This document shows, in pieces, positions 32,650-43,277 of a stretch of 64,000 bases of DNA. Numbering within the stretch: position 1 is the first letter of the stretch; every line of letters starts with the position of its first letter. The DNA is taken from assembly GCA_016193315.1 (NCBI GenBank), contig JACPSJ010000001.1, forward strand, positions 21,935 through 85,934, written 5' to 3'. A program made the translations under genes and the position numbers. The notes under the pieces are model-generated. The model worked only from the letters and a program-made list of their open reading frames with translations, had not been told where the DNA came from and made no database searches. The DNA is from Candidatus Kerfeldbacteria bacterium. GTDB taxonomy: Bacteria > Patescibacteriota > Patescibacteriia > SBBC01 > CAIJZX01.

Positions 32650-33140
32650 TCAGACCGCGGGCACGTCAGTGCCCCGGTTTTTTGTCGATTCGCTGGGCGC
32701 CGATTGCCAGGCGCGTCTCGCCGCGAGCGCGGTTCCAAACAAAAAAATTGAAATCCCAGCTGAGATGAGGCAGTAGAAACAATAAGCTTTCAACACGAAT
32801 GCTTGCAGCCAGAGTAGATACAGGCTAAAGAGGAACCCCACCACGGTCAGAAGCATCAGGATCCGTAGCCACCGGACCTGTCCAGTATCCAGAACCATGA
32901 TGCTGAGAACGACAATGACCAGGTAGTAGCCCGCGCCCAGGAGCGAAATCGGAACCGGGCCGATGGTAGCGTAGACGCTATTGGTCACTACGTCGCAGCC
33001 GGTGGTGACCAGGCAGGGGATTGGCCCGTGCGTTAACTTCTCGACCGTCAGGAATGTGGCGTCGGCAAAGCCAAGCACGCCCAGGACGAGAAAGACAATG
33101 ACCCAGGTTTTTGGTTGACGCGCCGCCAGACCGTTAGTCA
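32650..33140 (-). CDS. vitamin K epoxide reductase (VKOR) family protein
   Basis: 4 TM helices, loop Cys pair CLVTTGC and active-site CFYC in TM4. Proposed GTG start at 33140 overlaps the TAA of the upstream DsbA-like ORF (gtgactaa). Confidence 0.7.
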
Positions 33141-34272
33141 CATCCCGTTCCCAAGCCCCCGACGCAGTTCTCGGTCGGCGGTTGACCGCGCTCCGGGCAC
33201 TTCTCCGAGTAGATACAGGCTTTGTCCGTGACGTTGGCCACCTGATCTTGGGTTTCGGCCGGCGTGTAGGTGCCAAAGAGAACAAGAATCCTGTCCAGGT
33301 CGTTCGGCTGATAGGCGCCAAACTGTGTATTCGCTTGGCCATTGACGAACAGTTGAAGTTTCTGGTCGCCGCTGGTGCATTTGTCCTGGCCGGTGTCGAG
33401 TTTCAAACATTGCGCGGTCAAGCCCATGCCGAAGGAGGTCAAGAGATCACTGAGGCTGACGTCAGCGGCGTGGATGTGCACCACCTCGCCATTGCCGTCG
33501 TGGAAATGGATGCCGGGGTGGAGGTGGTTGGCTTCGGTGGCTTGGAATTTATCCTGGGAGAAGTCGATGGCTTGACCATCGACGACCAGGCGAAAATCAA
33601 AGTGGTTGTGCACGGTGGCCGGGCTGGTGTTTGTCAACGGCCGCTTAGCAATTGCTTCTTCAATCAGCTTCTGGAAGTCTTCCAGACTGCGCGGGTTCTG
33701 AAGACGTTCGCCGTTGAGAAAGAAGGTCGGTGTACCGTTGACTTGGGCGCGGCGGCCGCTGGCGGCGTCGGTATCGACGACACTCGATACGGCGGTAGAA
33801 TCCAGATCAAGAGATCGTGCATCGGCCAGAACGCATCCTGTTTGGCCGCGGCCTCGGAGGCTTCGGCCGAGGCTTCAGCGTTTAGATGCGACTGGGTCAG
33901 CGGGAAGTGGCGGTAGGCGAGGCCAAGCCGGTCACCGAACTTGTCCGTCAATGATTGCAGGACCGATTCGTAGGCGGCGCAGGCCGGACACTGGAAGTCG
34001 CCGTATTCGATCAGAATCGCTGGTGCCTGGGCTGAACCACGAACATGATCAGTGGCTTTGATGGCATCAACCGATGAGTTAGTGTTGTTATCCGGTTGGC
34101 CCTTGGCCAAGTAGACGAGGCCCCAGACGATGAGGCCTAACCCAAGAATCGTCCCCCCCCAAGTGAGGATGCGCCGCGGGGCCACCGGTTTCTTGACCGA
34201 CTCATTGGTCGGCAACAGTCCTTGCCGGCGTAACTCGCGACGCTGCTTCTTGGTCAAATGTTGGTCGTCCAT
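33134..34272 (-). pseudogene. DsbA-family thiol:disulfide oxidoreductase with an N-terminal TM anchor and a C-terminal Cys-rich extension, interrupted by a frameshift near 33760..33810
   Basis: Upstream ORF: TM anchor, then FQCPAC...FWPMHDLL (DsbA-like). A different frame continues with ...RRAQVNGTPTFFLNGERLQNPRSLEDFQKLIEEAI... (classic DsbA C-terminal motif) into ORF 33134..33637. Confidence 0.5.
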
Positions 34273-34519: not shown

Positions 34520-35458
34520 TTATTGGCACACCGGCGGCGATTCGTAACTGACCGATTCATAGGTTAGGCCCAGACTAGCGATTAAGCCAGCTTTTTCTAA
34601 CTCGCCATCGCACTTATGATCGCCCGAAGGTCGTTTCCCAACGTTCCCGACGCAGTAGTACTGCATTTCGGTGCCGGTCCAGGGCCAATACTGGTCTCCG
34701 CACATGACCAGTGGACCGTCATCCGGCCAAAATCCTCCTCCGGCACAGTTACAGCAAGTCCCATAATAGGTGCTATTTGACGAGAAGGAATGACTAGTTT
34801 CAGTGGTGTTGCCATTTGGGGAGCGGTAGCGGCGCAATTGACCCTTAATTGCTTTGCTGGAGTTCAAGAACGCTCGGCTGCCGCTTTTTTCCAGTTCAAT
34901 CTGAATGACATAGTGTTGGAAGTTGTCGAGTTCGCCGCTCACCAGATAGTGCCAGTGCTGCCGGTGCCAAGTGCTGCTCGGCCCACCCTCATATCTGGGC
35001 GTACCCGGAATTATTTTGTTAACAATCGGGTCATCGGGGATGGAACCGATAAGGTAGGGCTGTAAGATATCTTCCAACTGTTTCCATCCGCTCGGTAAGT
35101 CGCCCCCGGAGGCGGAAGAGATACACTCGGTATGAGGGTAAGTACCGTGGGCCGTATAGTACCGTTCGAGAGCCAGCTGAATCTCGGCCGCATCGGCTGC
35201 CCGCTGGGCATTCCTCGCTCGCACCCGCGCGCCGGAGGCGTAGTTGATGCCGATCAGGCTAATAATGCCGAGCACGCCGATGGTGATGACTATTTCGATC
35301 AAGGTGAAACCGAAAATTCGCCGTACTTTCTTGGTCGGAAGGTGTGGGGTTTGTAGAAGGTTGGACGGAGCCCGGCGGCTCGACCGGGCGACTGGGGGTG
35401 AAGCGGTTATTGCCGGCCGGGTGGCGGTGGGCTTAGGGTCTCGTGGTGTCACTAGCAA
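34520..35458 (-). CDS. prepilin-type N-terminal domain protein with a Cys-rich C-terminal domain
   Basis: ...KKVRRIFG|[16 protein letters not shown] prepilin motif. The C-terminus has a CCNC...C...C...C cluster. Start unclear: the conceptual leader is ~49 aa and the ORF overlaps the copA 3' end. Confidence 0.6.
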
Positions 35459-37868
35459 GGCGGAAACGTTTTAGCCGCAGTGAGTTTAGCACGACGAAGA
35501 GCGACGAGCCAGCCATGGCGCCGGAAGCGATGATCGGGCTGAGCAACAGATGAAACGCCGGGTACAGGACACCAGCGGCGATCGGCAGGCCGAGAATATT
35601 GTAGATGAATGCCCAGAAGAGATTCTGCTTGATATTCCGGAGCGTAGCTTTTGATAGGCGGATGGCGGTTACCACCTGACGGAGGTCATTGCCGACGATG
35701 GTGATATCCGACGCTTCCCGCGCCACGTCCGTGCCCGAGCCCATGGCCATGCCGACATCGGCTTGGGCCAGAGCTGGTGCATCATTGACGCCATCGCCGA
35801 CCATGGCCACGCGGTGTCCAGCAGCCTGGAGTTCTTTGACCTTGGCCGCTTTGTCGCCCGGCAGAATATTGGCCAGCACCCGATCGCGGTCAATGCCGAC
35901 TAGCTGAGCGATGCGGGCGGCCGTCACTTCGTGGTCGCCGGTGATCATGAAGACGGTTAGCCCGAGGCGACGTAATTGCGCGATGGCCGCCTGGCTGGTT
36001 GGCTTGATTTTGTCGCCGACGCCAATCAGCCCAGCCGTGTCTGCCTCAACCGCCACCATGATCGGCGTCAACCCACGCCTGGTGTAGGCTTGATGGTCGA
36101 ATCGGTCACCCGTAGTGAAAACGCCGAGGTTGTGCACCAGCCGTGGGGAACCGACAATCACTCGCTGTCCATTGATCACACCACTGACTCCTTGTCCGGG
36201 ATGGTTGTTGAAACCCACGACCGGCTGGAGAGTTAAACCCCGCTTCTTGGCTTCGGCCACGATCGCTTTGGCCATCGGGTGCTCGCTTTTTGCTTCGACT
36301 GAGGCGGCGTACTGCAGCGTGTAGTCTCGCCCGACGACATCGATCACGGCCATCTGCCCGCTGGTGACGGTGCCGGTCTTGTCCAGCACGATCGTGTCGA
36401 CCCGCTGAAGCAATTCCAAAGCCTCGGCATCGCGCACCAGCACGCCTTGTTCAGCGCCGCGACCAACACCAATCATAACCGCCGTCGGCGTGGCTAAGCC
36501 AAGGGCGCAGGGGCAGGCAATGATCAGCACCGTGACCGCGGCGATCAAGCTGAAGTTCAGGGCCAGGACGCCAGCCGGCGGGAAAATCATCCAGACGGTA
36601 AACGCCACCAGCGCGATGGCGATGACAATCGGCACAAAAACTCCAGAAATCTTGTCGGCCAAACGCTGAATTGGAGCTTGCGAGCTCTGGGCCTCCTCCA
36701 CCAGCTGGATGATCTGTGACAACATCGTTTGCTTCCCGACCTTCGTGGCGCGGAAGGTGAAGCTGCCGTGAGTATTGATGGTACTGCCGTAGACGATACT
36801 GCCCGGACTTTTCTCCCGCGGCAGGCTTTCGCCAGTGACCATCGCCTCGTCAACCGCCGACTGCCCGTCGACCACCTCGCCATCAACGGCTATTTTTTCA
36901 CCCGGCCGGACGACGATCACATCGCCCACCACGACTTGGTCAAGCGGTACTTCTCGTTCTTGCCCATGGCGGATAACGCGCGCCACTTTGGCGGCCAATT
37001 GGGCCAGTTTGCGGATCGCTTCATTGGCGCCGGCCTTAGCCCTGGCTTCAAGATACTTACCGAGCAGAATGAGCGTGATGATGACGACGGTCACGTCAAA
37101 GTAGGTGGCTGGTTGCTGCCCACTGCCGGCAAAAGCCGCTGGCCAGACCACTGCGACCAGGCTGAAAAAGTATGCGGCGCTGGTGCCGAGAGCGATGAGC
37201 GTATCCATGTTCGCTTGCCAGAAGCGCAGCGATTTCCAGGTGCTGACGAAAAACTGCGATCCAGCCCAGAAGAGGACCGGCGTGGCCAGAAGAAGTTGAA
37301 TCGGTCGAATGGTTGATTCGGGAGCGATGGTTGCTCCGAACAACATCAATGCGTCCGGCAGCATGACCATGATCGAAGTAACCACCCCGAACCTCAACTT
37401 GCGTTTTAAGATAAGGAGTTCTTCCTGTCGCAACATCCGGGCGTGATCGTGGACGCTGTGTTCCATTGAGCCGGTTTCACCGGTGTGTTCGTGGGCCGAT
37501 GGTTCGTGTTCGTCATGGTGGTCGTGGGCGGCCGCGGCTCCTCCCCTGCCCGACCGCTCGGCCATGAGCTCGCGGCCGAATGGGGGGAGGTGTCCCGAGC
37601 TTCGTCGAGGGGCGGAGGGGTGGGAGCCGCGGCCGCCCTCAATAACGGCCGTGTATCCCAGCTTGTCGATTTGCTCGGCGATCCGTGTTGGTGAGCATTG
37701 CTGTGAATCGAAAGTCACCCGACCCTGCTCGGTGGCGTAATTGACGTTAACCTCAGCCACGCCTGGTAGCTTTTTGACCACCCGCTCAATGTTCTTGGCG
37801 CACGAAGCACAGTGCATGCCGACGATGGGAAAACGAAGGCTGGTGGTCATACCCTGGTCACTGAACAA
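35433..37868 (-). CDS. copA: copper-translocating P1B-type ATPase
   Basis: N-terminal HMA ([12 protein letters not shown]), His-rich stretch, CPC in the TM region, [15 protein letters not shown]. Confidence 0.9.
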
Positions 37869-38859
37869 TGTTCACCGGCTGACCGTGCTCAAAAGCCTCG
37901 ATGTTCTTTATCGTTGTGTCTAGAATGCGCTGGAGCGCCTCGCCGGAGTTAAAGGCGTTGTGTGGTGTGATGATCACTTTCGGGTGGTTGAGGAGCAGGT
38001 GATCGGCCAAGACCGTCTTGAGGTCACACTTCGTCTGGAAAACCTTTGACAGCAACTCCCGCTCTTCCTTGATGGTGCATTCTTCTTCCAAAACATCTAG
38101 GCCGACGCCAGCCAGGTGTCCTTCGCCCAACACCTTCAAGAGTGCCTGCGTATCAATCAGTTGACCACGGGCGGTGTTGATCAGCCAGGCAGTCGGCTTC
38201 ATCAACCGCAATCGTGCTTCGTTGAGGAGATGCTGATTGTCCGGCGTGGCTGGCGCGTGGAGGGAAACGACGTCGCTCCGTCGCAACAGATCGTCCAGCG
38301 GGACGTACTGGAATTCAAGCCGTCGGGCCTGCTCTTGATTCGGGCGTGGGTCATAAGCGATGACCGACATTTCCAGCCCCCGCCCCATTTTGATCAGCCG
38401 TTGACCGATCCGACCGGCACCGACCACGCCCATGGTTTTACCGGCCAAGTCCACGCCACGCAGGTCGTCGAGACGAAAATCGCCATGCTGAGTTCGGACC
38501 ACGCTGGGGATGATTTTTCTCGACAGGGCGAGGAGCAGGGCCAAAGCATGTTCAGCCACAGTGTTCTCGCCGTACGACGGCACGTTGCAAACGGTGATGC
38601 CGTGGCTGTGGCAGGCGGCCAAGTCAATGTGGTCGTACCCGGTCGACATGGTGGCGATCAGCCTCAGTGCCGGGTAGCGGTCGAGGACGTCTTTGGTGAT
38701 CGGGCTGTAGATAAAGATGGCCAACACGTCGGGTTGCCCGATATCACCGGCTTCATCAAGATGCTTGGTGGAAAACTGCCCGTTGGGGAAAACCCGCCGT
38801 AGATAATCGATTTCCCATTGTTCCAGCTCGACCGCCGCCAGGCGCATGGTTTGATTCAT
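37858..38859 (-). CDS. D-isomer-specific 2-hydroxyacid dehydrogenase family protein
   Basis: NAD-binding [12 protein letters not shown], catalytic R/E/H region (NTARGQLID...PHNAF). Confidence 0.85.
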
Positions 38860-39131
38860 AGTCGGTCAAAAACCTGCATTAGTTCAGCGATCGTTTTTTC
38901 GGCCGCCCCGCCTCTGGTGTCCCGCATGTCCCGGGCGACGCAGGTACGGAGGTGATGCTGCAGCACTTGCTCGTCAAACTTTCGCAGCGCCTGCTGGATG
39001 GCCCGCGATTGGTGGATGATGTCGATGCAGTAGGCGCCTTCATCGAGCATGCGGCGAACTTTCCGCAGGTGTCCCTCGACGATGGCCAGACGGTGAGCCG
39101 TGGTTTTTCGCTTATCTTGGAGGGTTTTCAT
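38856..39131 (-). CDS. csoR: CsoR/RcnR-family metal-sensing transcriptional repressor
   Basis: HRLAIVEGHLRKVRRMLDEGAYCIDIIHQSRAIQQAL...HL (W-X-Y-Z Cys/His positions of the CsoR family); 4-bp overlap with the dehydrogenase gene. Confidence 0.75.
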   Translation of the reverse strand: MKTLQDKRKTTAHRLAIVEGHLRKVRRMLDEGAYCIDIIHQSRAIQQALRKFDEQVLQHHLRTCVARDMRDTRGGAAEKTIAELMQVFDRL

Positions 39132-39157
39132 GGTTATCCAACCTTCGTCCACAAGTC

Positions 39158-39216
39158 TGGTATGGGGGATTGAGGAATCATGGTGTGGATAGTCCTAATC
39201 CCCTATGGGGGGATTA
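39158..39216. promoter_or_regulatory. candidate CsoR operator(s) in the csoR promoter region
   Basis: GC-tract pseudo-palindrome taatcccctatggggggatta (39196..39216) plus a second tggtatgggggattg half-copy (39158..39172). Resembles known CsoR boxes (TACCC-n-GGGTA type). Confidence 0.4.
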
Positions 39217-39332
39217 TAACAGTCCACAGGCCGGGGCACAATCCCCTCTATCTACGGACCTACTTCGCGAGGTTTTTGCTTGTCGCTTGACATTGAAATA
39301 GCGGCTGGTGTAGGGTGTGTTTACAACCGAAT

Positions 39333-39510
39333 ACGCATCAAGAGAGGGTGATAGCGCACGCTCAACGTGCCGCGGGTGTACTGGACCCGCCAAGCGCCCC
39401 CACAACCTACCTCAAGCTTGTCGAGAGGCAAGGTGCGAACCCAGCCCTGTCCGGCGGAGGGACGTAGTACGTCCCGGAGCCGGATCCGGCTCGGCCGGAA
39501 AAGGGACAGA
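39333..39510 (+). promoter_or_regulatory. SAM-I (S-box) riboswitch-like element, variant with insertions (upstream copy)
   Basis: P1 acgcatc...gatgc; core ATCAAGAGAGGGTGA...ACTGGaCCCG...AACC...GGTGCGAAccCAGCC...GGACAGATG; resembles the RF00162 consensus. Confidence 0.4.
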
Positions 39511-39575
39511 TGCAAAGAATCTCTTTGCAGTCCGTCCTGAACAGGGGCGGTTGTTTCATGCACATTGACAATTGA

Positions 39576-39683
39576 ATAACATCAAGAGCGAGTGCTAGGG
39601 TCCTGGCCCAGTGATCACTCCCCCAACCAATTCCGCTATCCAGCGGAAGAACGGTGGGACTTCCAGCCTGAAATGGACAGATG
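39576..39683 (+). promoter_or_regulatory. SAM-I (S-box) riboswitch (downstream copy)
   Basis: aacATCAAGAGcGAGtGCTAGGGtCCTGGCCCAgTGAtCACtCcCCCAACC..TTCCGC..GCGGAA..GGTGGGActTCCAGCC..GGacAGATGtt; P1 aacatc/gatgtt, P3 ttccgc/gcggaa; 68 nt upstream of the ATG at 39752. Confidence 0.6.
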
Positions 39684-39751
39684 TTGTATTCGAACTGCAG
39701 CCGCCTTTTCGGGCGGTTGTTTTGTCCTGCTGGCACCAAAAGGAGCAAACT

Positions 39752-40579
39752 ATGCCATCGAAAGTAGAGAAGCAAGACCGCCACGCGAAAGAAGTATCGG
39801 CCATCGTGGCTGGGGCGCGTGAAGAGCTGGAACGCGCCAGCCAAACGCTCCAGCGCATGGTCGAGTTCGTTCACCAGCCGTTGTTCCTCCAATTCCGCAA
39901 CCGGGCCGCCCAGATGATCGCCACCGCTCACCCTAAACTGGTGACGGCCATGCAGATCATCGAAGCGGCAGTCGAACAGGTGCAGGTGACCGGCAAGCTG
40001 GCGCCGCACAATCCGTGGCCCGGGCCGTGGCCGGAAACGTGGGACTGCCTACGCTTGCCGACCGGCGCGGTCGACTACGCGAACATCGTGTGCGCCAACT
40101 ACCTGACCCGGCTTGAGGGCGACCTCGAGTATCACGAGGAAGGCTGGATGTACGCACTGCTGCCCTGCCTGCAATTCGCTCACGATCGGTTGGTTGCCGT
40201 TCGCGGAGAATTCCTCAGCCAGTTCGGCGAACCGTTTGATCGGGCGGCCGTGGATAGGCAGTACGACCGAGTCCCCCGGGTTCGCTTCGAGCACGTAGCC
40301 GACGTGCTGCGGGAGTGCGATGAGCGATCCCAGGGGCAGGCGCTCAGGGACTGGCTCAAGCGCCATGCCAACACGGATGTCACGCTAGCCGGCGGCCACG
40401 GCGTCCGGTTCATGCTTTGGGACCAGGGCGAAGAAATTATTCCCATGTATTACCTGGACCACGAGAAGCGGCCTGGTCGGAGCGATTGGAAGCATTGGCG
40501 GGACGCGATCAAACTGGTCATTGCCCGCCGGTCTCCGGCGCGACCGGACAATCCACAGTCGTGGCAGGAATTCTTCTGA
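39752..40579 (+). CDS. hypothetical protein (276 aa) downstream of the SAM riboswitches
   Basis: AAAGGAG 6 nt upstream of the ATG at 39752; no recognisable motif (Trp/His-rich). Confidence 0.5.
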   Translation: MPSKVEKQDRHAKEVSAIVAGAREELERASQTLQRMVEFVHQPLFLQFRNRAAQMIATAHPKLVTAMQIIEAAVEQVQVTGKLAPHNPWPGPWPETWDCLRLPTGAVDYANIVCANYLTRLEGDLEYHEEGWMYALLPCLQFAHDRLVAVRGEFLSQFGEPFDRAAVDRQYDRVPRVRFEHVADVLRECDERSQGQALRDWLKRHANTDVTLAGGHGVRFMLWDQGEEIIPMYYLDHEKRPGRSDWKHWRDAIKLVIARRSPARPDNPQSWQEFF

Positions 40580-40963
40580 AAGGAGGTGAACCAATGACCA
40601 CTCGTGCGCAGCGGCAAAAACTCCGCAATCGACTTGAGGATGTCCTGGAAATTCGCCAGGAGGTCCGGCGCTGTCTCCGTTGCCGGGGGAGGGTTATCTC
40701 CCTTATCAGGAGGCGAGAGCGCTGCTTGGCGACGAGCTAGGCAAAATCGGTTGGGGCTGGCTCGATCTCCTCCACCTCCGTCGTGAACTTCAGACTGAGC
40801 GACGGTTGTGGATGGAGTGCCAGGGGACCAGCGACCCTCGCTGGATTGCCTGGCAGAACGGGGAATCCTTCTCTGCCCCGATGGGCGTGGAGGTGTAGTT
40901 CCTGTTCAACCCGCCGCCCCGAGCGAAGTCGAGGGGCGGCGGCGCGCCAATCAAGGAGCCATC

Positions 40964-41428
40964 ATGAACCAGAGCACAGACGAATTCAAAGTCTTCCGTT
41001 TGGAGAAGTTCATTCCCACCCATTGCCCGAAGTGCGCCCATCCGTTCCGATCGAACGCGGATCGCGACTTCCTGTTCGACCACCGCCTCCTGCATCCGCA
41101 GGAAACGCCGGCCGAGTGGCTAGCCGTGTTTCCGGAAGCGGCTGCGACCGAGGGGCTGCACGCCGAGCCGATCTGGTGCGGCCGATGCCAGAACATCACC
41201 TTGCGCGTCGTGACCGCCGTTCGACATGTGACCACCGAGGCGGAGGCGGTCGAGCTCGAATCCCTCGGTTACGCCAACCGGCGGGTGCTCGAGTGCTCCG
41301 GGGAAAGTTTCTCGCAGCTACCGGAGTACACGTTAGCCGTTCTGGTAGATCCAGAAACAGAGCGCGGCCCGATTACGTTCTTTCCGAAGGCCATGCATCG
41401 ACCTGGCCCACCCCGCCCCTCACAGTGA
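40964..41428 (+). CDS. hypothetical zinc-ribbon protein (154 aa)
   Basis: AAGGAG plus ATG at 40964; CPKC...CGRC; followed by a hairpin and T-run. Confidence 0.45.
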   Translation: MNQSTDEFKVFRLEKFIPTHCPKCAHPFRSNADRDFLFDHRLLHPQETPAEWLAVFPEAAATEGLHAEPIWCGRCQNITLRVVTAVRHVTTEAEAVELESLGYANRRVLECSGESFSQLPEYTLAVLVDPETERGPITFFPKAMHRPGPPRPSQ

Positions 41429-41550
41429 GGCGGGTTTTGTTTTGGCCGACGCTCAGCTCCGGAGATCAGCGTTGACACCTCTACACGCTGTCTGTTACAG
41501 TAGCTTCCCCTTGCAATATCTCGGATGGGTTGACCGTCCGTGAGGAGGAT

Positions 41551-41769
41551 ACGGTGGAAAAGCGAACCTTGATCGTCGTCAAGCCGCGGCCATGTCCACA
41601 CTGCAAGGCGCCGGCCGGGTATGGCGACACCGACTACCGGTGTCCAAGTTGCGGCCAAGGATTCTGCAGCCTGTGTTACAAGACGGATCCTGACGGGCCG
41701 GGAGATTACGTCTTCTGTCCCAGCTGCAAAGCCACGCTGTACTTTCCGATAACGCTCCTGACCGCTTAG
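41551..41769 (+). CDS. small double zinc-ribbon protein (~72 aa)
   Basis: Four CxxC motifs (CPHC, CPSC, CSLC, CPSC); GAGGAGG before the GTG at 41551 (the ORF could also start at 41530). Confidence 0.45.
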   Translation, partial: TVEKRTLIVVKPRPCPHCKAPAGYGDTDYRCPSCGQGFCSLCYKTDPDGPGDYVFCPSCKATLYFPITLLTA

Positions 41770-41770
41770 C

Positions 41771-41800
41771 CGCTCCTCGTCGAGCGGTTTTTTGTATGGC
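41771..41800 (+). terminator. intrinsic terminator
   Basis: ccgctcctcgtcgagcgg followed by ttttttgt. Confidence 0.5.
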
Positions 41801-41820
41801 TGGAATGGGCGCGGCGGCGC

Positions 41821-42027
41821 CTAAACTAATTCCACCGGGTAACCCTCCGAGTCGAGCGCGGTCTTGAGAGCCGCCGATTGGACGCTGTCGTCATGCTCAA
41901 CCGTCAACGTTTTCTGCCGGACATTGACTTCAGCCTTTTTCACTCCCGGCGTATCTTCGCAGATGCCTTCCATCACCAAAGCGCAGGAGGCGCAGTCGTA
42001 CTTGAGAACCTTGAATGTCGTCGTCAT
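41821..42027 (-). CDS. copZ: heavy-metal-associated (HMA) copper chaperone, CopZ-like
   Basis: MTTTFKVLKYDCASCALVMEGICEDTPGVKKAEVNV, a ferredoxin-like HMA fold with a CxxC metal site; the start overlaps the upstream stop (TAATG). Confidence 0.7.
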   Translation of the reverse strand: MTTTFKVLKYDCASCALVMEGICEDTPGVKKAEVNVRQKTLTVEHDDSVQSAALKTALDSEGYPVELV

Positions 42028-43025
42028 TAGACCGCCTGGATCGTCCCGCGGAACATGCCCATGCCGCAACTAAACGTATACTCGCCCGGCGCGGGGAAGA
42101 TCGCACTTACCAGCGTGGTACCGGTTCGCGGCAGGGATCGTTCAATCTGGAGCTTCGGGATGCGAAAGAGCTGGGTGCAGCCGGCGTTGTTGTTCGTTAC
42201 CAAACTCAACTCGACAGGTTGGCCGGCTGGGACAGTAACGATGTTCGGTTCGTAGCCATTGTTAAGAACATTGATAGTTAGACTAGTTTCCCCGGCAGTC
42301 GAAGTCTGAGTGGTGCCGTAGGCCAAGGCTCGGAAGGCGGCGATTTCGTTTTGAATGGAGTAAGGCGAATCGACCATCACCAGCACGCCGTTGAGCGTGT
42401 AGAGTCCTAACGCCACCACCACCGCGGCGGCGGCATAGGCCAACCGCCGTTGCAACAATGCTGTGCCCTTAGCCAGAATCCCGACGGTAAAGAACAACGG
42501 CGCCGTCCCCAGGACAAAAGCGAGCATCACGCTCGCGCCTTGCCAAGGGCTGGCCGTGGCGATGGCCGCCACCTCCATCGCCTGCGTCGTCCCGCAGGGG
42601 ATGAGCACCGTCAGCAGACCGAGGATGGCGGGCGCGATCAGGAGTTGACTCTTGGCGCTCCGCCGAATCAGACGGCGGGCCGAGGCCGGCGGATGAATGG
42701 TTAACCATGGTAACCAGTGGGGGAAGATCAATCGAACGCCGGCTACCAACATAAACAAACCGGCTAACGTCTGCAGCCAAATACGAACGGTGGTGGTCAA
42801 TTGGATGGTATCGCCGAGCCAGCCGAGGCCGAATCCAAGGACCGTATGGATAATCAGCTTGGCCACCAGGAAAGCGGTTACCGGCAAGATCAACAGTTGC
42901 CATCGCTGCAGGTGGGGTTCCTCTCGGCGGCGGGCCAAAAGTCCGAGTAGCAGCCCGCCCTGGACGGCCAGGCAGGTCAGGCCCCCGGTACTGAGGCCAG
43001 TCAAGAAAGCAGTCAGCGGCGTCAT
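42027..43025 (-). CDS. membrane protein: CcdA/DsbD-like six-TM core fused to a C-terminal cupredoxin-like domain
   Basis: TM1 FLTGLSTGGLTCLAV and TM4 LIPCGTTQ resemble the two Cys-containing helices of CcdA/DsbD. The C-terminal ~90 aa ends in GEYTFSCGMGMFRGTIQAV, a Cupredoxin_1-like motif. Confidence 0.6.
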   Translation of the reverse strand: MTPLTAFLTGLSTGGLTCLAVQGGLLLGLLARRREEPHLQRWQLLILPVTAFLVAKLIIHTVLGFGLGWLGDTIQLTTTVRIWLQTLAGLFMLVAGVRLIFPHWLPWLTIHPPASARRLIRRSAKSQLLIAPAILGLLTVLIPCGTTQAMEVAAIATASPWQGASVMLAFVLGTAPLFFTVGILAKGTALLQRRLAYAAAAVVVALGLYTLNGVLVMVDSPYSIQNEIAAFRALAYGTTQTSTAGETSLTINVLNNGYEPNIVTVPAGQPVELSLVTNNNAGCTQLFRIPKLQIERSLPRTGTTLVSAIFPAPGEYTFSCGMGMFRGTIQAV

Positions 43026-43277
43026 GGTCTTTCTACTACATACTGTAGTACCTTGGGCCGAGTGTCAACCCCGCACCACTTTTTGGTATTCTCACGGCCG
43101 CGGATGCCGCCGACGTCGAAGCCGCCTCTCATTGTATACCAAGAGGCGAATCTGATTGGCGGAAAAGTGGTGCGGGGTGCCCGGCCCCCGGGGCCAGCGC
43201 TATGGCCGGACCGAAAAGCGCTTGTCAAATGGGGTAACCTTGGCTATACTTCGCCTGCTTCGTTTGGTCGACCAGCT

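What the first reader, a model, noticed from the sequence alone, without database searches (positions are those of the whole stretch)
41821..43025. CcdA/DsbD-like thiol-transporter core fused to an extracytoplasmic cupredoxin-like domain, coupled to CopZ
The 332-aa protein has six TM helices. The first and fourth carry Cys in CcdA/DsbD-like contexts (GGLTCLAV, LIPCGTTQ). A ~90-aa C-terminal domain ends in EYTFSCGMGMFRGTIQAV (Cupredoxin_1-like Cys/Met copper ligands). Its stop overlaps the start of a CopZ-like HMA chaperone (TAATG). A membrane redox/transport module fused to a cupredoxin and coupled to a chaperone suggests a copper reduction or handling system different from CopA/CopZ alone.
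Basis: partly seen in the sequence, partly recalled or inferred. Interest (0 to 1): 0.55.

Follow-up and report, generated by a model that had tools for sequence, protein, structure and literature searches.

The report
Membrane cysteine relay for copper handling
A conserved, uncharacterised two-gene copper module pairs a six-helix membrane protein, which has cysteines inside the membrane and a copper-binding domain on the cell surface, with a small cytoplasmic copper chaperone, and it probably passes copper across the membrane without ATP.

Summary
Window 42027..43025 (-) encodes a 332-aa protein with a DsbD_2 six-helix core (PF13386, E 3.5e-27) and a C-terminal Cupredoxin_1 domain (E 3.9e-15). 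Its stop overlaps (TAATG) the start of a 68-aa HMA/CopZ-like gene.

Loop charges (11 K/R on one face, 0 on the other) and natural HMA-TM-DsbD_2-cupredoxin fusions put the chaperone inside the cell and the cupredoxin outside.

The pair occurs in at least 570 species (Patescibacteria, Chloroflexota and others), usually as csoR-cupA-copA-[this gene]-HMA. The HMA gene follows in 78 of 80 loci. The window genome is a Kerfeldbacteria bacterium, where NCBI names the protein 'sulfite exporter TauE/SafE'.

I found no experimental work on it. My best reading (about 0.45) is a thiolate Cu(I) relay from cytoplasm to cell surface. The main rival (about 0.3) is a CcdA/ScsB-like reductase that keeps a surface copper trap reduced. 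It is a new variant of known kinds, of moderate to high interest.

The parts
42027..43025 (-). Gene for the 332-aa DsbD_2-cupredoxin fusion protein (NCBI name: 'sulfite exporter TauE/SafE family protein', Candidatus Kerfeldbacteria)
   Evidence: ORF. Pfam PF13386 plus PF13473. An identical protein is on record in NCBI (P0001).
42375..43025 (-). Six-helix DsbD_2 membrane core (residues 1-217). It holds the invariant Cys18 (helix 1) and Pro143-Cys144-Gly145 (break in helix 4), conserved Met92/Met150/Met167, and an invariant Arg117/Arg118/Arg121 on a short cytoplasmic helix before helix 4.
   Evidence: AF2 helices. Conservation. K/R counts are 11 on loops 1/3/5 and 0 on the N-terminus and loops 2/4.
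42030..42284 (-). Predicted extracytoplasmic CupA-type cupredoxin domain (residues 248-332) with Cu(I) ligands Cys283, Cys320, Met322 and Met324
41821..42027 (-). Gene for a 68-aa cytoplasmic HMA (CopZ-like) protein with CxxC = C12-A-S-C15 and no signal peptide. Its start overlaps the upstream stop codon (TAATG).
   Evidence: An HMA gene lies directly downstream of the orthologue in 78 of 80 loci.
43034..43050 (.). Perfect 17-bp palindrome TACTACATACTGTAGTA, 8 nt upstream of the ATG. It contains a -10-like TACAGT and is a candidate operator of a BlaI/CopY-family repressor.
   Evidence: Expected by chance 0.02 per window. The same ACTACA-N3-TGTAGT motif sits upstream of the orthologous gene in L003, L005, L006, L007, L010, L018, L023 and L026. 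In L029 it precedes both a blaI-like gene and the dsbA-like/DsbD_2-cupredoxin/HMA operon.
43063..43068 (-). -35-like TTGACA upstream of the palindrome
   Evidence: Read from the sequence. A TTGAC(A/C/T) hexamer at a similar spacing is conserved in L003, L005, L006, L007 and L010.
38856..39152 (-). Context: csoR-family copper-sensing repressor gene
   Evidence: PF02583 E 2.6e-22. Weak NCBIfam RicR hit.
39197..39215 (.). Context: CsoR-type operator AATCCCC-N5-GGGGATT overlapping a TATAAT box upstream of csoR. It is the only such site in the window.
35433..37868 (-). Context: CopA, a Cu(I)-exporting P1B-1 ATPase with an N-terminal HMA domain and the CPC, YN and MxxSS motifs
   Evidence: Pfam. TIGR01511 scores 614.7 bits against a cut-off of 397. 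Motifs.
33664..34272 (-). Context: DsbA-like thioredoxin-fold gene on the same strand, downstream of copA
   Evidence: Thioredoxin_4 E 1.4e-9. DsbA-like genes lie next to the module in at least 10 of 80 loci.
32650..33342 (-). Context: VKOR (a DsbB-like thiol oxidase) gene
   Evidence: PF07884 E 8e-23. A VKOR gene is also near the module in L027, L045, L048 and L075.

Best explanation
The two genes encode a trans-membrane Cu(I) hand-over device. The steps below are marked as shown or inferred.

1. The 68-aa HMA protein binds Cu(I) in the cytoplasm through its CxxC motif. That it is an HMA protein with CxxC and no signal peptide is shown. Cu(I) binding is inferred.
2. It docks on the positively charged cytoplasmic face of the six-helix DsbD_2 core. 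The invariant Arg117/118/121 helix sits before helix 4, and the chaperone subfamily carries a conserved acidic D/E-L-E-D patch after its CxxC. Docking is inferred.
3. It passes Cu(I) by ligand exchange to the invariant Cys18/Cys144 pair in the middle of the membrane. Conserved Met92/150/167 may help line the path. This step is inferred.
4. The pair alternates access as the homologous cysteines do in CcdA/DsbD. This step is inferred.
5. The pair delivers Cu(I) to the CupA-type binuclear site (Cys283, Cys320, Met322, Met324) of the fused cupredoxin on the outer face. The fold, the ligands and the opposite-side topology are shown. The transfer is inferred.

The net effect would be ATP-independent removal of cytoplasmic Cu(I) and its capture at the cell surface. 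It would work alongside CopA as part of the copper-stress regulon. A bis-thiolate carrier that returns protonated would in effect be a Cu+/2H+ antiporter driven by the proton-motive force. That last point is speculation.
For: - **Domains and ligands.** DsbD_2, Cupredoxin_1 and HMA are all matched. The cupredoxin is CupA-like with the complete Cu(I) ligand set. CupA's bis-thiolate S1 site and Met-rich S2 site are described in PMC7558416.
- **Conservation.** The two membrane Cys and two cupredoxin Cys have zero substitutions in 113-149 representatives. The Met ligands are kept in 92-95%.
- **Topology.** The query has 11 K/R on loops 1/3/5 and 0 on the opposite face. The family means are 10.3 and 0.6. 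In 6 of 113 representatives the HMA domain is fused N-terminally through one extra hydrophobic helix, so HMA and cupredoxin must lie on opposite sides. None of the 78 downstream HMA proteins has a signal peptide.
- **Dedicated partnership.** An HMA gene lies directly downstream in 78 of 80 loci. This holds in free-standing two-gene modules with no copA or csoR within 8 kb (L035 Leptolinea sp. HRD-7, L069, L073). It also holds where a second copZ already sits next to copA (L079, L048).
- **Copper context.** copA is within the locus in 67 of 80 cases and immediately upstream in 48. csoR is present in 45, and a true cupA in 27. The window's csoR-copA operon is 2.7 kb away. DsbD_2/HMA proteins (COG2836) belong to the predicted CsoR regulon of gut Firmicutes (PMC4938975).
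- **No thioredoxin fold.** Neither partner domain has the thioredoxin fold that DsbD/CcdA membrane domains exchange electrons with. Both are metal-binding folds.
Against: - No member of this family or of PF13386 has been tested. I found no paper on it.
- The nearest characterised relatives, DsbD, CcdA and ScsB, move electrons, not metals.
- No conserved acidic residue lies in the membrane. E151 is E or M across the family. No energy source is evident.
- CopA already exports Cu(I) in the same operon, so a second exporter looks redundant.
- DsbA-like and VKOR genes recur beside the module, which fits a thiol-redox role.
- The orientation of the cupredoxin relative to the membrane core in the AF2 model is uncertain, because the linker at residues 237-242 has pLDDT below 50.
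Confidence: 0.45

Rival explanations
1. Reductase model. The DsbD_2 core is a CcdA/ScsB-like electron conduit. Its Cys18/Cys144 pair carries reducing equivalents from the cytoplasm to the Cys283/Cys320 pair of the surface cupredoxin, and perhaps onward to the neighbouring DsbA-like protein. This would keep a surface Cu(I) trap or disulfide-repair system reduced while copper and DsbA/VKOR oxidise the envelope. The HMA protein would be only the usual CopA chaperone or a copper-dependent regulator.
For: - The core is homologous to the DsbD/CcdA membrane domain, with cysteines in the same helices 1 and 4.
- DsbA-like genes lie directly next to the module in at least 10 of 80 loci. VKOR is nearby in 5 loci and in the window.
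- There is a precedent in the copper-induced Scs system. There a DsbD-family protein (ScsB) reduces a DsbA-like ScsC, both bind Cu+, and both pass it to CueP (PMC10907172).
- CupA cysteines can reduce Cu(II) in vitro (PMC7558416).
- A beta-sandwich bearing a Cys pair recalls the immunoglobulin-like alpha domain of DsbD and ScsB.
Against: - It gives no role to a dedicated cytoplasmic HMA partner that is kept in 78 of 80 loci, in free-standing modules, and fused in cis on the cytoplasmic side.
- No thioredoxin-fold domain is fused to the protein.
- The Met322/Met324 ligands and the membrane methionines are conserved, which points to selection for Cu(I) binding rather than for a redox Cys pair alone.
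- Most loci (about 64 of 80) have no DsbA-like gene within the fetched flanks.
Confidence: 0.3
2. Passive surface copper sink. Only the cupredoxin matters. It is a membrane-tethered extracellular Cu(I) buffer that takes Cu(I) released by CopA, playing the role of CopL, CusF or CueP. The six-helix core would be mainly an anchor, and the HMA protein would serve CopA.
For: - copA lies immediately upstream in 48 of 80 loci.
- Extracytoplasmic Cu(I) acceptors for CopA are known, for example CueP (PMC10907172).
- The cupredoxin ligand set is fully conserved.
Against: - A mere anchor would not keep Cys18, Pro143-Cys144-Gly145, Gln22, Thr147 and many glycines invariant at 28-60% identity.
- CupA itself needs only one helix as an anchor.
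- Free-standing modules exist without copA (L035, L069, L073).
Confidence: 0.1
3. Import direction, or a different metal. The relay would run inward, as MerP, MerT and NmerA do for Hg(II), bringing surface-captured Cu(I) to the cytoplasmic chaperone. Alternatively the true substrate is Ag(I), Hg(II) or Cd(II).
For: - The arrangement of an HMA domain, membrane cysteines and a metal-binding domain mirrors the mercury uptake relay. This rests on my own knowledge of MerP/MerT/NmerA; PMC3466566 was opened, but the passages read concern MerA and do not describe the relay.
- The HMA protein scores slightly better against MerP than against CopZ models, all of them below cut-off.
Against: - The genomic context is csoR, cupA and a P1B-1 copA, not merA or merR.
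- Importing copper under a copper-stress regulon would be counter-productive.
- The C-x-M-x-M site is the CupA Cu(I) site.
Confidence: 0.08

Closest known systems
CupA, the membrane-anchored Cu(I) chaperone of Streptococcus pneumoniae (PDB 4f2e/2mry), and the cupredoxin-type N-terminal domain of its CopA (4f2f)
   Same: - The sequence is detectably homologous (profile E 1.7e-9).
- The ligands are the same: an upstream Cys plus C-x-M-x-M.
- It is encoded in a cop operon.
   Different: - CupA has one N-terminal helix and faces the cytoplasm. Here the domain is fused to the C-terminus of a six-helix core and is predicted to face outward.
- The motif is CGMGM(Y/F), against CGMNMxH in CupA.
- True CupA orthologues (about 120 aa) coexist with this protein in 27 of 80 related operons, so it is a paralogous use of the domain, not a CupA replacement.
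CcdA / DsbD beta domain / ScsB (DsbD superfamily thiol-disulfide electron transporters; PF02683)
   Same: - Related by sequence profile in part of the family (PF02683 in 31 of 113 relatives; NCBIfam DsbD E 7.7e-6).
- Six-helix core with one essential cysteine in helix 1 and one in helix 4.
- N-terminus and C-terminus both outside.
- ScsB is also copper-induced and binds Cu+.
   Different: - It belongs to the sister family DsbD_2 (PF13386). The motifs are GGL(T/S)C and PCG(T/F)T rather than the proline-flanked cysteine motifs I recall for CcdA/DsbD. That last point is from my own knowledge and was not tested here.
- Its partners are an HMA protein and a cupredoxin, not thioredoxin-fold proteins.
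MerP-MerT-NmerA mercury relay and MerTP / MerT-CopZ fusions
   Same: The logic is the same. A soft metal ion is passed between an HMA domain, a cysteine pair inside a membrane protein, and a metal-binding domain on the other side, without ATP.
   Different: - There is no sequence or fold relationship to MerT.
- The likely direction is outward and the metal is copper.
- The outer domain is a cupredoxin rather than an HMA domain.
COG2836 'heavy metal transport/detoxification' proteins of Firmicutes (HMA + DsbD_2 +/- DUF2318)
   Same: - The same DsbD_2 core is associated with an HMA domain.
- They are predicted members of the CsoR copper regulon (PMC4938975).
   Different: - They have no cupredoxin domain.
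- They are also uncharacterised experimentally.
TauE/SafE sulfite exporters (the name carried in NCBI and JGI records)
   Same: They share a distant superfamily of small multi-helix transporters. This is from my own knowledge of the Pfam LysE clan.
   Different: - There is no PF01925 hit at E <= 0.1.
- Nothing in the context concerns sulfite or sulfonates, so the database name is misleading.

Membership tests
DsbD_2 (Pfam PF13386) | Whole-protein HMM score above the gathering threshold | tested here: met
   96 bits against a cut-off of 24.9, E 3.5e-27, covering profile positions 1-199 of 199. All 113 of 113 diverse relatives also match.
DsbD_2 (Pfam PF13386) | One conserved cysteine in each three-helix repeat (helices 1 and 4) | tested here: met
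   C18 and C144 show no substitution in any aligned relative.
CcdA/DsbD thiol-disulfide electron transporters (PF02683) | PF02683 / DsbD membrane-domain HMM match | tested here: inconclusive
   The window protein has no hit at E <= 0.1. 31 of 113 relatives hit (best E 2.7e-13), and P0253 hits NCBIfam DsbD at E 7.7e-6. This shows superfamily membership, not family membership.
CcdA/DsbD thiol-disulfide electron transporters (PF02683) | Thioredoxin-fold redox partners on both sides of the membrane | tested here: not met
   The fused and adjacent partners are a cupredoxin and an HMA protein. DsbA-like genes are neighbours in only about 16 of 80 loci.
CcdA/DsbD thiol-disulfide electron transporters (PF02683) | Fold similarity to solved CcdA/DsbD structures | tested here: inconclusive
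   [not shown]
CcdA/DsbD thiol-disulfide electron transporters (PF02683) | Thioredoxin-dependent disulfide/dithiol cycling of the membrane cysteines | not testable with these tools
   Needs in vivo alkylation-shift assays or complementation experiments.
CupA-type cupredoxin Cu(I) chaperone | Cupredoxin fold closest to CupA | tested here: met
   [not shown]
CupA-type cupredoxin Cu(I) chaperone | Ligand set Cys ... Cys-x-Met-x-Met | tested here: met
   C283, C320, M322 and M324 align with the CupA ligands. The cysteines are invariant, and the methionines are kept in 92-95% of relatives.
CupA-type cupredoxin Cu(I) chaperone | Single N-terminal membrane anchor with the domain in the cytoplasm | tested here: not met
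   The domain follows six helices and is predicted to be outside. True single-helix CupA orthologues occur separately in related operons.
Type-1 (blue) copper cupredoxin | His-Cys-His-Met copper ligands | tested here: not met
   Judged against the type-1 ligand positions as I know them, the upstream His position holds Cys283 and the downstream His position holds Met322/Met324 (read from the sequence). No blue-copper protein ranks above CupA.
CopZ / HMA metallochaperone | HMA fold HMM match and a CxxC motif near the N-terminus | tested here: met
   PF00403 scores 29.4 bits against a cut-off of 24.8. The motif is C12-A-S-C15.
CopZ / HMA metallochaperone | NCBIfam CopZ model cut-offs (models typed 'exception' or 'equivalog') | tested here: not met
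   The best CopZ model scores 34.7 bits against a cut-off of 91. MerP scores 37 against 92.55. It is a divergent HMA subfamily, and most members carry GMHCxxCAxxID(G/F)(E/D)LED.
TauE/SafE sulfite exporter (database name) | PF01925 HMM match | tested here: not met
   No such hit at E <= 0.1.
ScsB / full-length DsbD | Eight helices with periplasmic alpha (immunoglobulin-like) and gamma (thioredoxin-like) domains | tested here: not met
   There are six helices and a single C-terminal cupredoxin. ScsB features are taken from PMC10907172.

The most novel reading that the evidence does not exclude
This would be the founding example of a new class of ATP-independent copper transporters. A DsbD/CcdA-type scaffold would have been re-purposed from moving electrons to moving Cu(I) itself. 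The ion would be handed from a dedicated cytoplasmic HMA chaperone, through a two-cysteine site in the membrane, to an outward-facing CupA-like domain. The class would be widespread in Patescibacteria and Chloroflexota, which are otherwise thought to rely on CopA alone.
Probability: 0.4. Interest if true: 0.8.

Novelty: new variant of a known kind. Interest (0 to 1): 0.6.

Why it matters
- **A possible new export route.** Bacterial Cu(I) export across the cytoplasmic membrane is attributed almost entirely to P1B ATPases. A chaperone-fed thiolate relay on a DsbD-like scaffold would be a second, mechanistically different route. It would also show how an electron transporter can evolve into a metal transporter, or the reverse.
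- **Still informative under the rival model.** If the reductase reading is right, this is the monoderm and candidate-phyla counterpart of the copper-induced Scs system. It would link copper stress with envelope thiol redox control in organisms that have very small genomes.
- **CupA is wider than thought.** A 2020 review (PMC7558416) describes CupA as found only in S. pneumoniae and a few other streptococcal species. True CupA orthologues and this fused paralogue occur in hundreds of uncultured species.
- **The database name is wrong.** The current name, 'sulfite exporter TauE/SafE', is misleading.
- **It can be tested.** Leptolinea sp. HRD-7 carries the two-gene module on its own; its record is a complete genome of a named strain, which I take to be a cultured isolate (not checked). 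The module should also be portable to copper-sensitive E. coli or B. subtilis.

Tried and rejected
- **Type-1 copper / copper reductase reading: rejected.** Both histidine ligands are absent and CupA is the best structural and sequence match.
- **'Sulfite exporter' annotation: rejected.** There is no PF01925 hit and no sulfur context.
- **CsoR control of this gene in the window: not supported.** The only C4/G4 CsoR-type operator is upstream of csoR at 39197..39215. The module has its own promoter-like region with a different palindrome.
- **A BlaI/CopY-family repressor in the window: none found.** phmmer at E < 1e-4 found none among ORFs of at least 45 aa. It may be encoded elsewhere in the genome.
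- **The same palindrome upstream of the Chloroflexota and Dormibacterota orthologues, or of the free-standing modules: not found**.
- **AlphaFold-database fold search: unavailable** on the machine.
- **Literature: nothing on this architecture.** Searches for DsbD_2, PF13386, COG2836, TauE+cupredoxin+CopA and CcdA/CsoR/cupredoxin combinations found only the CsoR meta-regulon paper that lists COG2836.
- **E151 as a proton-coupling residue: rejected.** It is E in 60 and M in 62 of 146 representatives.
- **The three ORFs between the module and csoR (39611..41769):** no Pfam hit above its gathering threshold (the 79-aa ORF has only weak zinc-finger/zinc-ribbon-type matches) and no PHROG hit.
Full report
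**1.

On the minus strand, 42027..43025 encodes a 332-aa protein. It matches Pfam DsbD_2 (PF13386) at residues 5-209 with E 3.5e-27, and Cupredoxin_1 (PF13473) at residues 229-329 with E 3.9e-15. Its TAA stop (42029..42027) shares one base with the ATG of a 68-aa HMA protein at 41821..42027. That protein matches PF00403 with E 1.1e-6 and carries a CASC motif.

An AlphaFold2 model built on 43 homologues (pLDDT 81, pTM 0.68) shows six long helices followed by a beta-sandwich. Cys18 lies in helix 1, and Cys144 lies at a break in helix 4.

The matching model is DsbD_2, not PF02683. The link to the CcdA/DsbD membrane domain is at superfamily level. PF02683 is matched by 31 of 113 diverse relatives (best E 2.7e-13), and one relative matches the membrane part of NCBIfam DsbD (E 7.7e-6).

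**2. What the cupredoxin is**

CupA binds a binuclear Cu(I) cluster through a bis-thiolate S1 site and a Met-rich S2 site (PMC7558416). Both histidines of a type-1 copper site are missing here. The domain is therefore a Cu(I)-binding chaperone-type module, not an electron-transfer cupredoxin.

**3. Conservation**

- In 43 close homologues (52-77% identity), C18, C144, C283, C320, M322 and M324 are invariant.
- In 149 representatives of 50%-identity clusters (28-60% identity to the query), none of the four cysteines is ever substituted where aligned. The methionines are kept in 92-95%.
- Met92, Met150 and Met167 in helices 3-5 are conserved in 69-86%.
- E151 is not conserved (E or M).
- Arg117/118/121, on a short helix at the cytoplasmic entrance to helix 4, are invariant among close homologues.

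**4. Topology**

Loops 1, 3 and 5 carry 11 K/R in the query, with a family mean of 10.3. The N-terminus and loops 2 and 4 carry 0, with a family mean of 0.6. This gives N-out and C-out, the same as I recall for CcdA/DsbD.

There is independent support. Six of 113 representatives are natural fusions of HMA, one extra hydrophobic helix, DsbD_2 and cupredoxin. This forces the HMA and cupredoxin domains onto opposite sides of the membrane. The fused HMA domains and all 78 free-standing downstream HMA proteins lack signal peptides. So the chaperone is inside and the cupredoxin is outside.

**5. Distribution and context**

The identical protein is on record as 'sulfite exporter TauE/SafE family protein' from a Candidatus Kerfeldbacteria bacterium. 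They span many classes of Patescibacteria, Chloroflexota (including the complete genome of Leptolinea sp. HRD-7), Dormibacterota and Acidimicrobiia.

In the 80 best loci:

| Feature | Loci (of 80) |
|---|---|
| HMA gene directly downstream | 78 |
| P1B ATPase gene anywhere in the locus | 67 |
| P1B ATPase gene immediately upstream | 48 |
| csoR present | 45 |
| ~120-aa true CupA orthologue upstream of copA | 27 |

Of the two loci without a downstream HMA gene, one is cut by the contig end. The CupA orthologues have one N-terminal helix and a C...CGMNMxHG motif.

The canonical operon is csoR-cupA-copA-[DsbD_2-cupredoxin]-HMA. In L035, L069 and L073 the two genes stand alone, with no copA or csoR within 8 kb. 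L079 and L048 have a second copZ beside copA. The HMA protein is thus a dedicated partner of the membrane protein and not simply CopA's chaperone.

In the window the order is the same as in the Kerfeldbacteria loci L005 and L010: module, csoR, 2-hydroxyacid dehydrogenase, copA. The difference is that about 2.7 kb of orphan plus-strand ORFs (39611..41769) has been inserted between the HMA gene and csoR. The window's CopA carries the CPC, YN and MxxSS motifs and passes the TIGR01511 cut-off.

**6. Regulation**

A CsoR-type operator (AATCCCC-N5-GGGGATT, overlapping TATAAT) occurs only upstream of csoR, at 39197..39215. The module has its own upstream region. A perfect 17-bp palindrome, TACTACATACTGTAGTA (43034..43050), lies 8 nt before the ATG. 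It contains a -10-like TACAGT and is preceded by TTGACA. The chance expectation is 0.02 per window.

The same ACTACA-N3-TGTAGT motif sits upstream of the orthologue in five other Kerfeldbacteria loci and three distant Patescibacteria loci. In L029 it precedes both a BlaI-family repressor gene (Penicillinase_R, E 7.6e-28) paired with a BlaR1-like M56 protease, and the dsbA-like/module/HMA operon. The motif resembles the CopR/CopY cop box TACANNTGTA (PMC7253601), but with a 3-nt spacer. The repressors lack CopY's C-terminal cysteine motif. BlaI/BlaR1-like pairs flank the module in six loci.

**7. Mechanism**

*Shown:* the domain identities, the ligand sets, the strict conservation, the opposite-side topology, the dedicated HMA partner and the copper-operon context.

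*Inferred, best reading (about 0.45):* cytoplasmic HMA-Cu(I) docks on the basic cytoplasmic face. Most members of this chaperone subfamily carry a conserved acidic (E/D)LED patch after the CxxC. Cu(I) moves by ligand exchange to the Cys18/Cys144 pair. That pair alternates access and delivers the ion to the outward CupA-type site.

This mirrors the logic of the MerP-MerT-NmerA relay (from my own knowledge of that system), but on a DsbD-type scaffold and probably running outward. Both partner domains have metal-binding folds, and neither has a thioredoxin fold, which favours metal transfer over electron transfer. Weaknesses are the lack of any experimental precedent, no evident energy coupling and apparent redundancy with CopA.

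*Main rival (about 0.3):* a CcdA/ScsB-like reductant conduit that keeps the surface Cu(I)-binding cysteines, or the neighbouring DsbA-like protein, reduced. Support comes from homology, from recurrent DsbA-like and VKOR neighbours (about 16 and 5 of 80 loci, plus window 33664..34272 and 32650..33342), and from the copper-induced Scs system (PMC10907172). This model leaves the dedicated cytoplasmic HMA partner unexplained.

*Lesser rivals:* a passive surface copper sink (about 0.1), contradicted by the invariant membrane-core residues. Inward transport or a different metal (about 0.08), contradicted by the cop context.

**8. Comparison with known systems and novelty**

The protein is a member of Pfam DsbD_2 and carries a CupA-type domain. 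It fails the defining features of:
- CupA proper (single anchor, cytoplasmic orientation);
- CcdA/DsbD proper (thioredoxin-fold partners);
- ScsB/DsbD (eight helices with alpha and gamma domains);
- type-1 cupredoxins;
- TauE/SafE.

Literature searches found no description of the architecture. The only related mention is that HMA/DsbD_2 proteins (COG2836) belong to the predicted CsoR regulon of gut Firmicutes (PMC4938975).

I rate it a new variant of known kinds. It is a widespread, uncharacterised and mis-annotated module, with a testable and potentially new transport mechanism.

Noticed in passing
window 43034..43050 (and L003, L005, L006, L007, L010, L018, L023, L026, L029): A conserved palindrome, ACTACA-N3-TGTAGT, overlaps the -10 region upstream of the module. 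In L029 it also precedes a BlaI-family repressor gene paired with a BlaR1-like M56 protease. This suggests a BlaI/BlaR1-type proteolytic switch controls the operon, not CsoR. No such repressor is encoded in the 64-kb window.
   Followed up: partly
L029 6068-7117; L018 6924-7907: The BlaR1-like proteases next to the module end in a shared Cys/Met-rich tail after the last hydrophobic segment (AM(M)IC-x5/6-AC-x3-CK). This could be an extracytoplasmic metal or redox sensor.
   Followed up: no
L013, L017, L018, L021, L023 and others (27 of 80 loci), upstream of copA: These are true CupA orthologues of about 120 aa, with one N-terminal helix followed by KKEK and a C...CGMNMxHG motif. [quoted passage not shown]
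   Followed up: partly
window 37858..38859 (-): A D-2-hydroxyacid dehydrogenase gene sits between csoR and copA and overlaps both. The same arrangement is conserved in Kerfeldbacteria loci L004, L005 and L010. It is an unexplained member of a copper operon.
   Followed up: no
window 39216..41820: About 2.6 kb lies between the HMA gene and csoR that is absent from the syntenic loci L005 and L010. It holds three plus-strand ORFs of 322, 206 and 79 aa, followed by a terminator-like hairpin at 41768..41789. None has a Pfam hit above threshold or any PHROG hit; the 79-aa ORF has four Cys pairs and weak zinc-finger/zinc-ribbon matches (IBR_1 E 6e-5). It is probably an insertion of orphan genes.
   Followed up: partly
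window 39197..39215: A CsoR-type operator, AATCCCCTATGGGGGGATT, overlaps a TATAAT box upstream of csoR. It is the only copy in the window.
   Followed up: yes
window 32650..34272 (-): A VKOR gene and a DsbA-like gene (an oxidative disulfide-forming pair) lie on the same strand downstream of copA. The same pair sits beside the cop cluster in L027, L045 and L075. This hints at co-localised copper and envelope-thiol functions.
   Followed up: partly
window 34520..35458 (-): A 312-aa ORF overlaps the end of copA. It has only a weak N-terminal methylation (pilin-like) motif (Pfam N_methyl E 1.6e-3; PHROG pilin E 5e-4).
   Followed up: no
L009-L011, L013, L022-L027 and others: Many metagenome bins titled 'uncultured Gammaproteobacteria' or 'Pseudomonadales' carry operons like those of the Patescibacteria-labelled loci, and one (L010) has FtsH synteny. 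These taxon labels look unreliable.
   Followed up: no
P0125, P0239, P0262: Some family members carry two tandem CupA-type cupredoxin domains after the membrane core.
   Followed up: no
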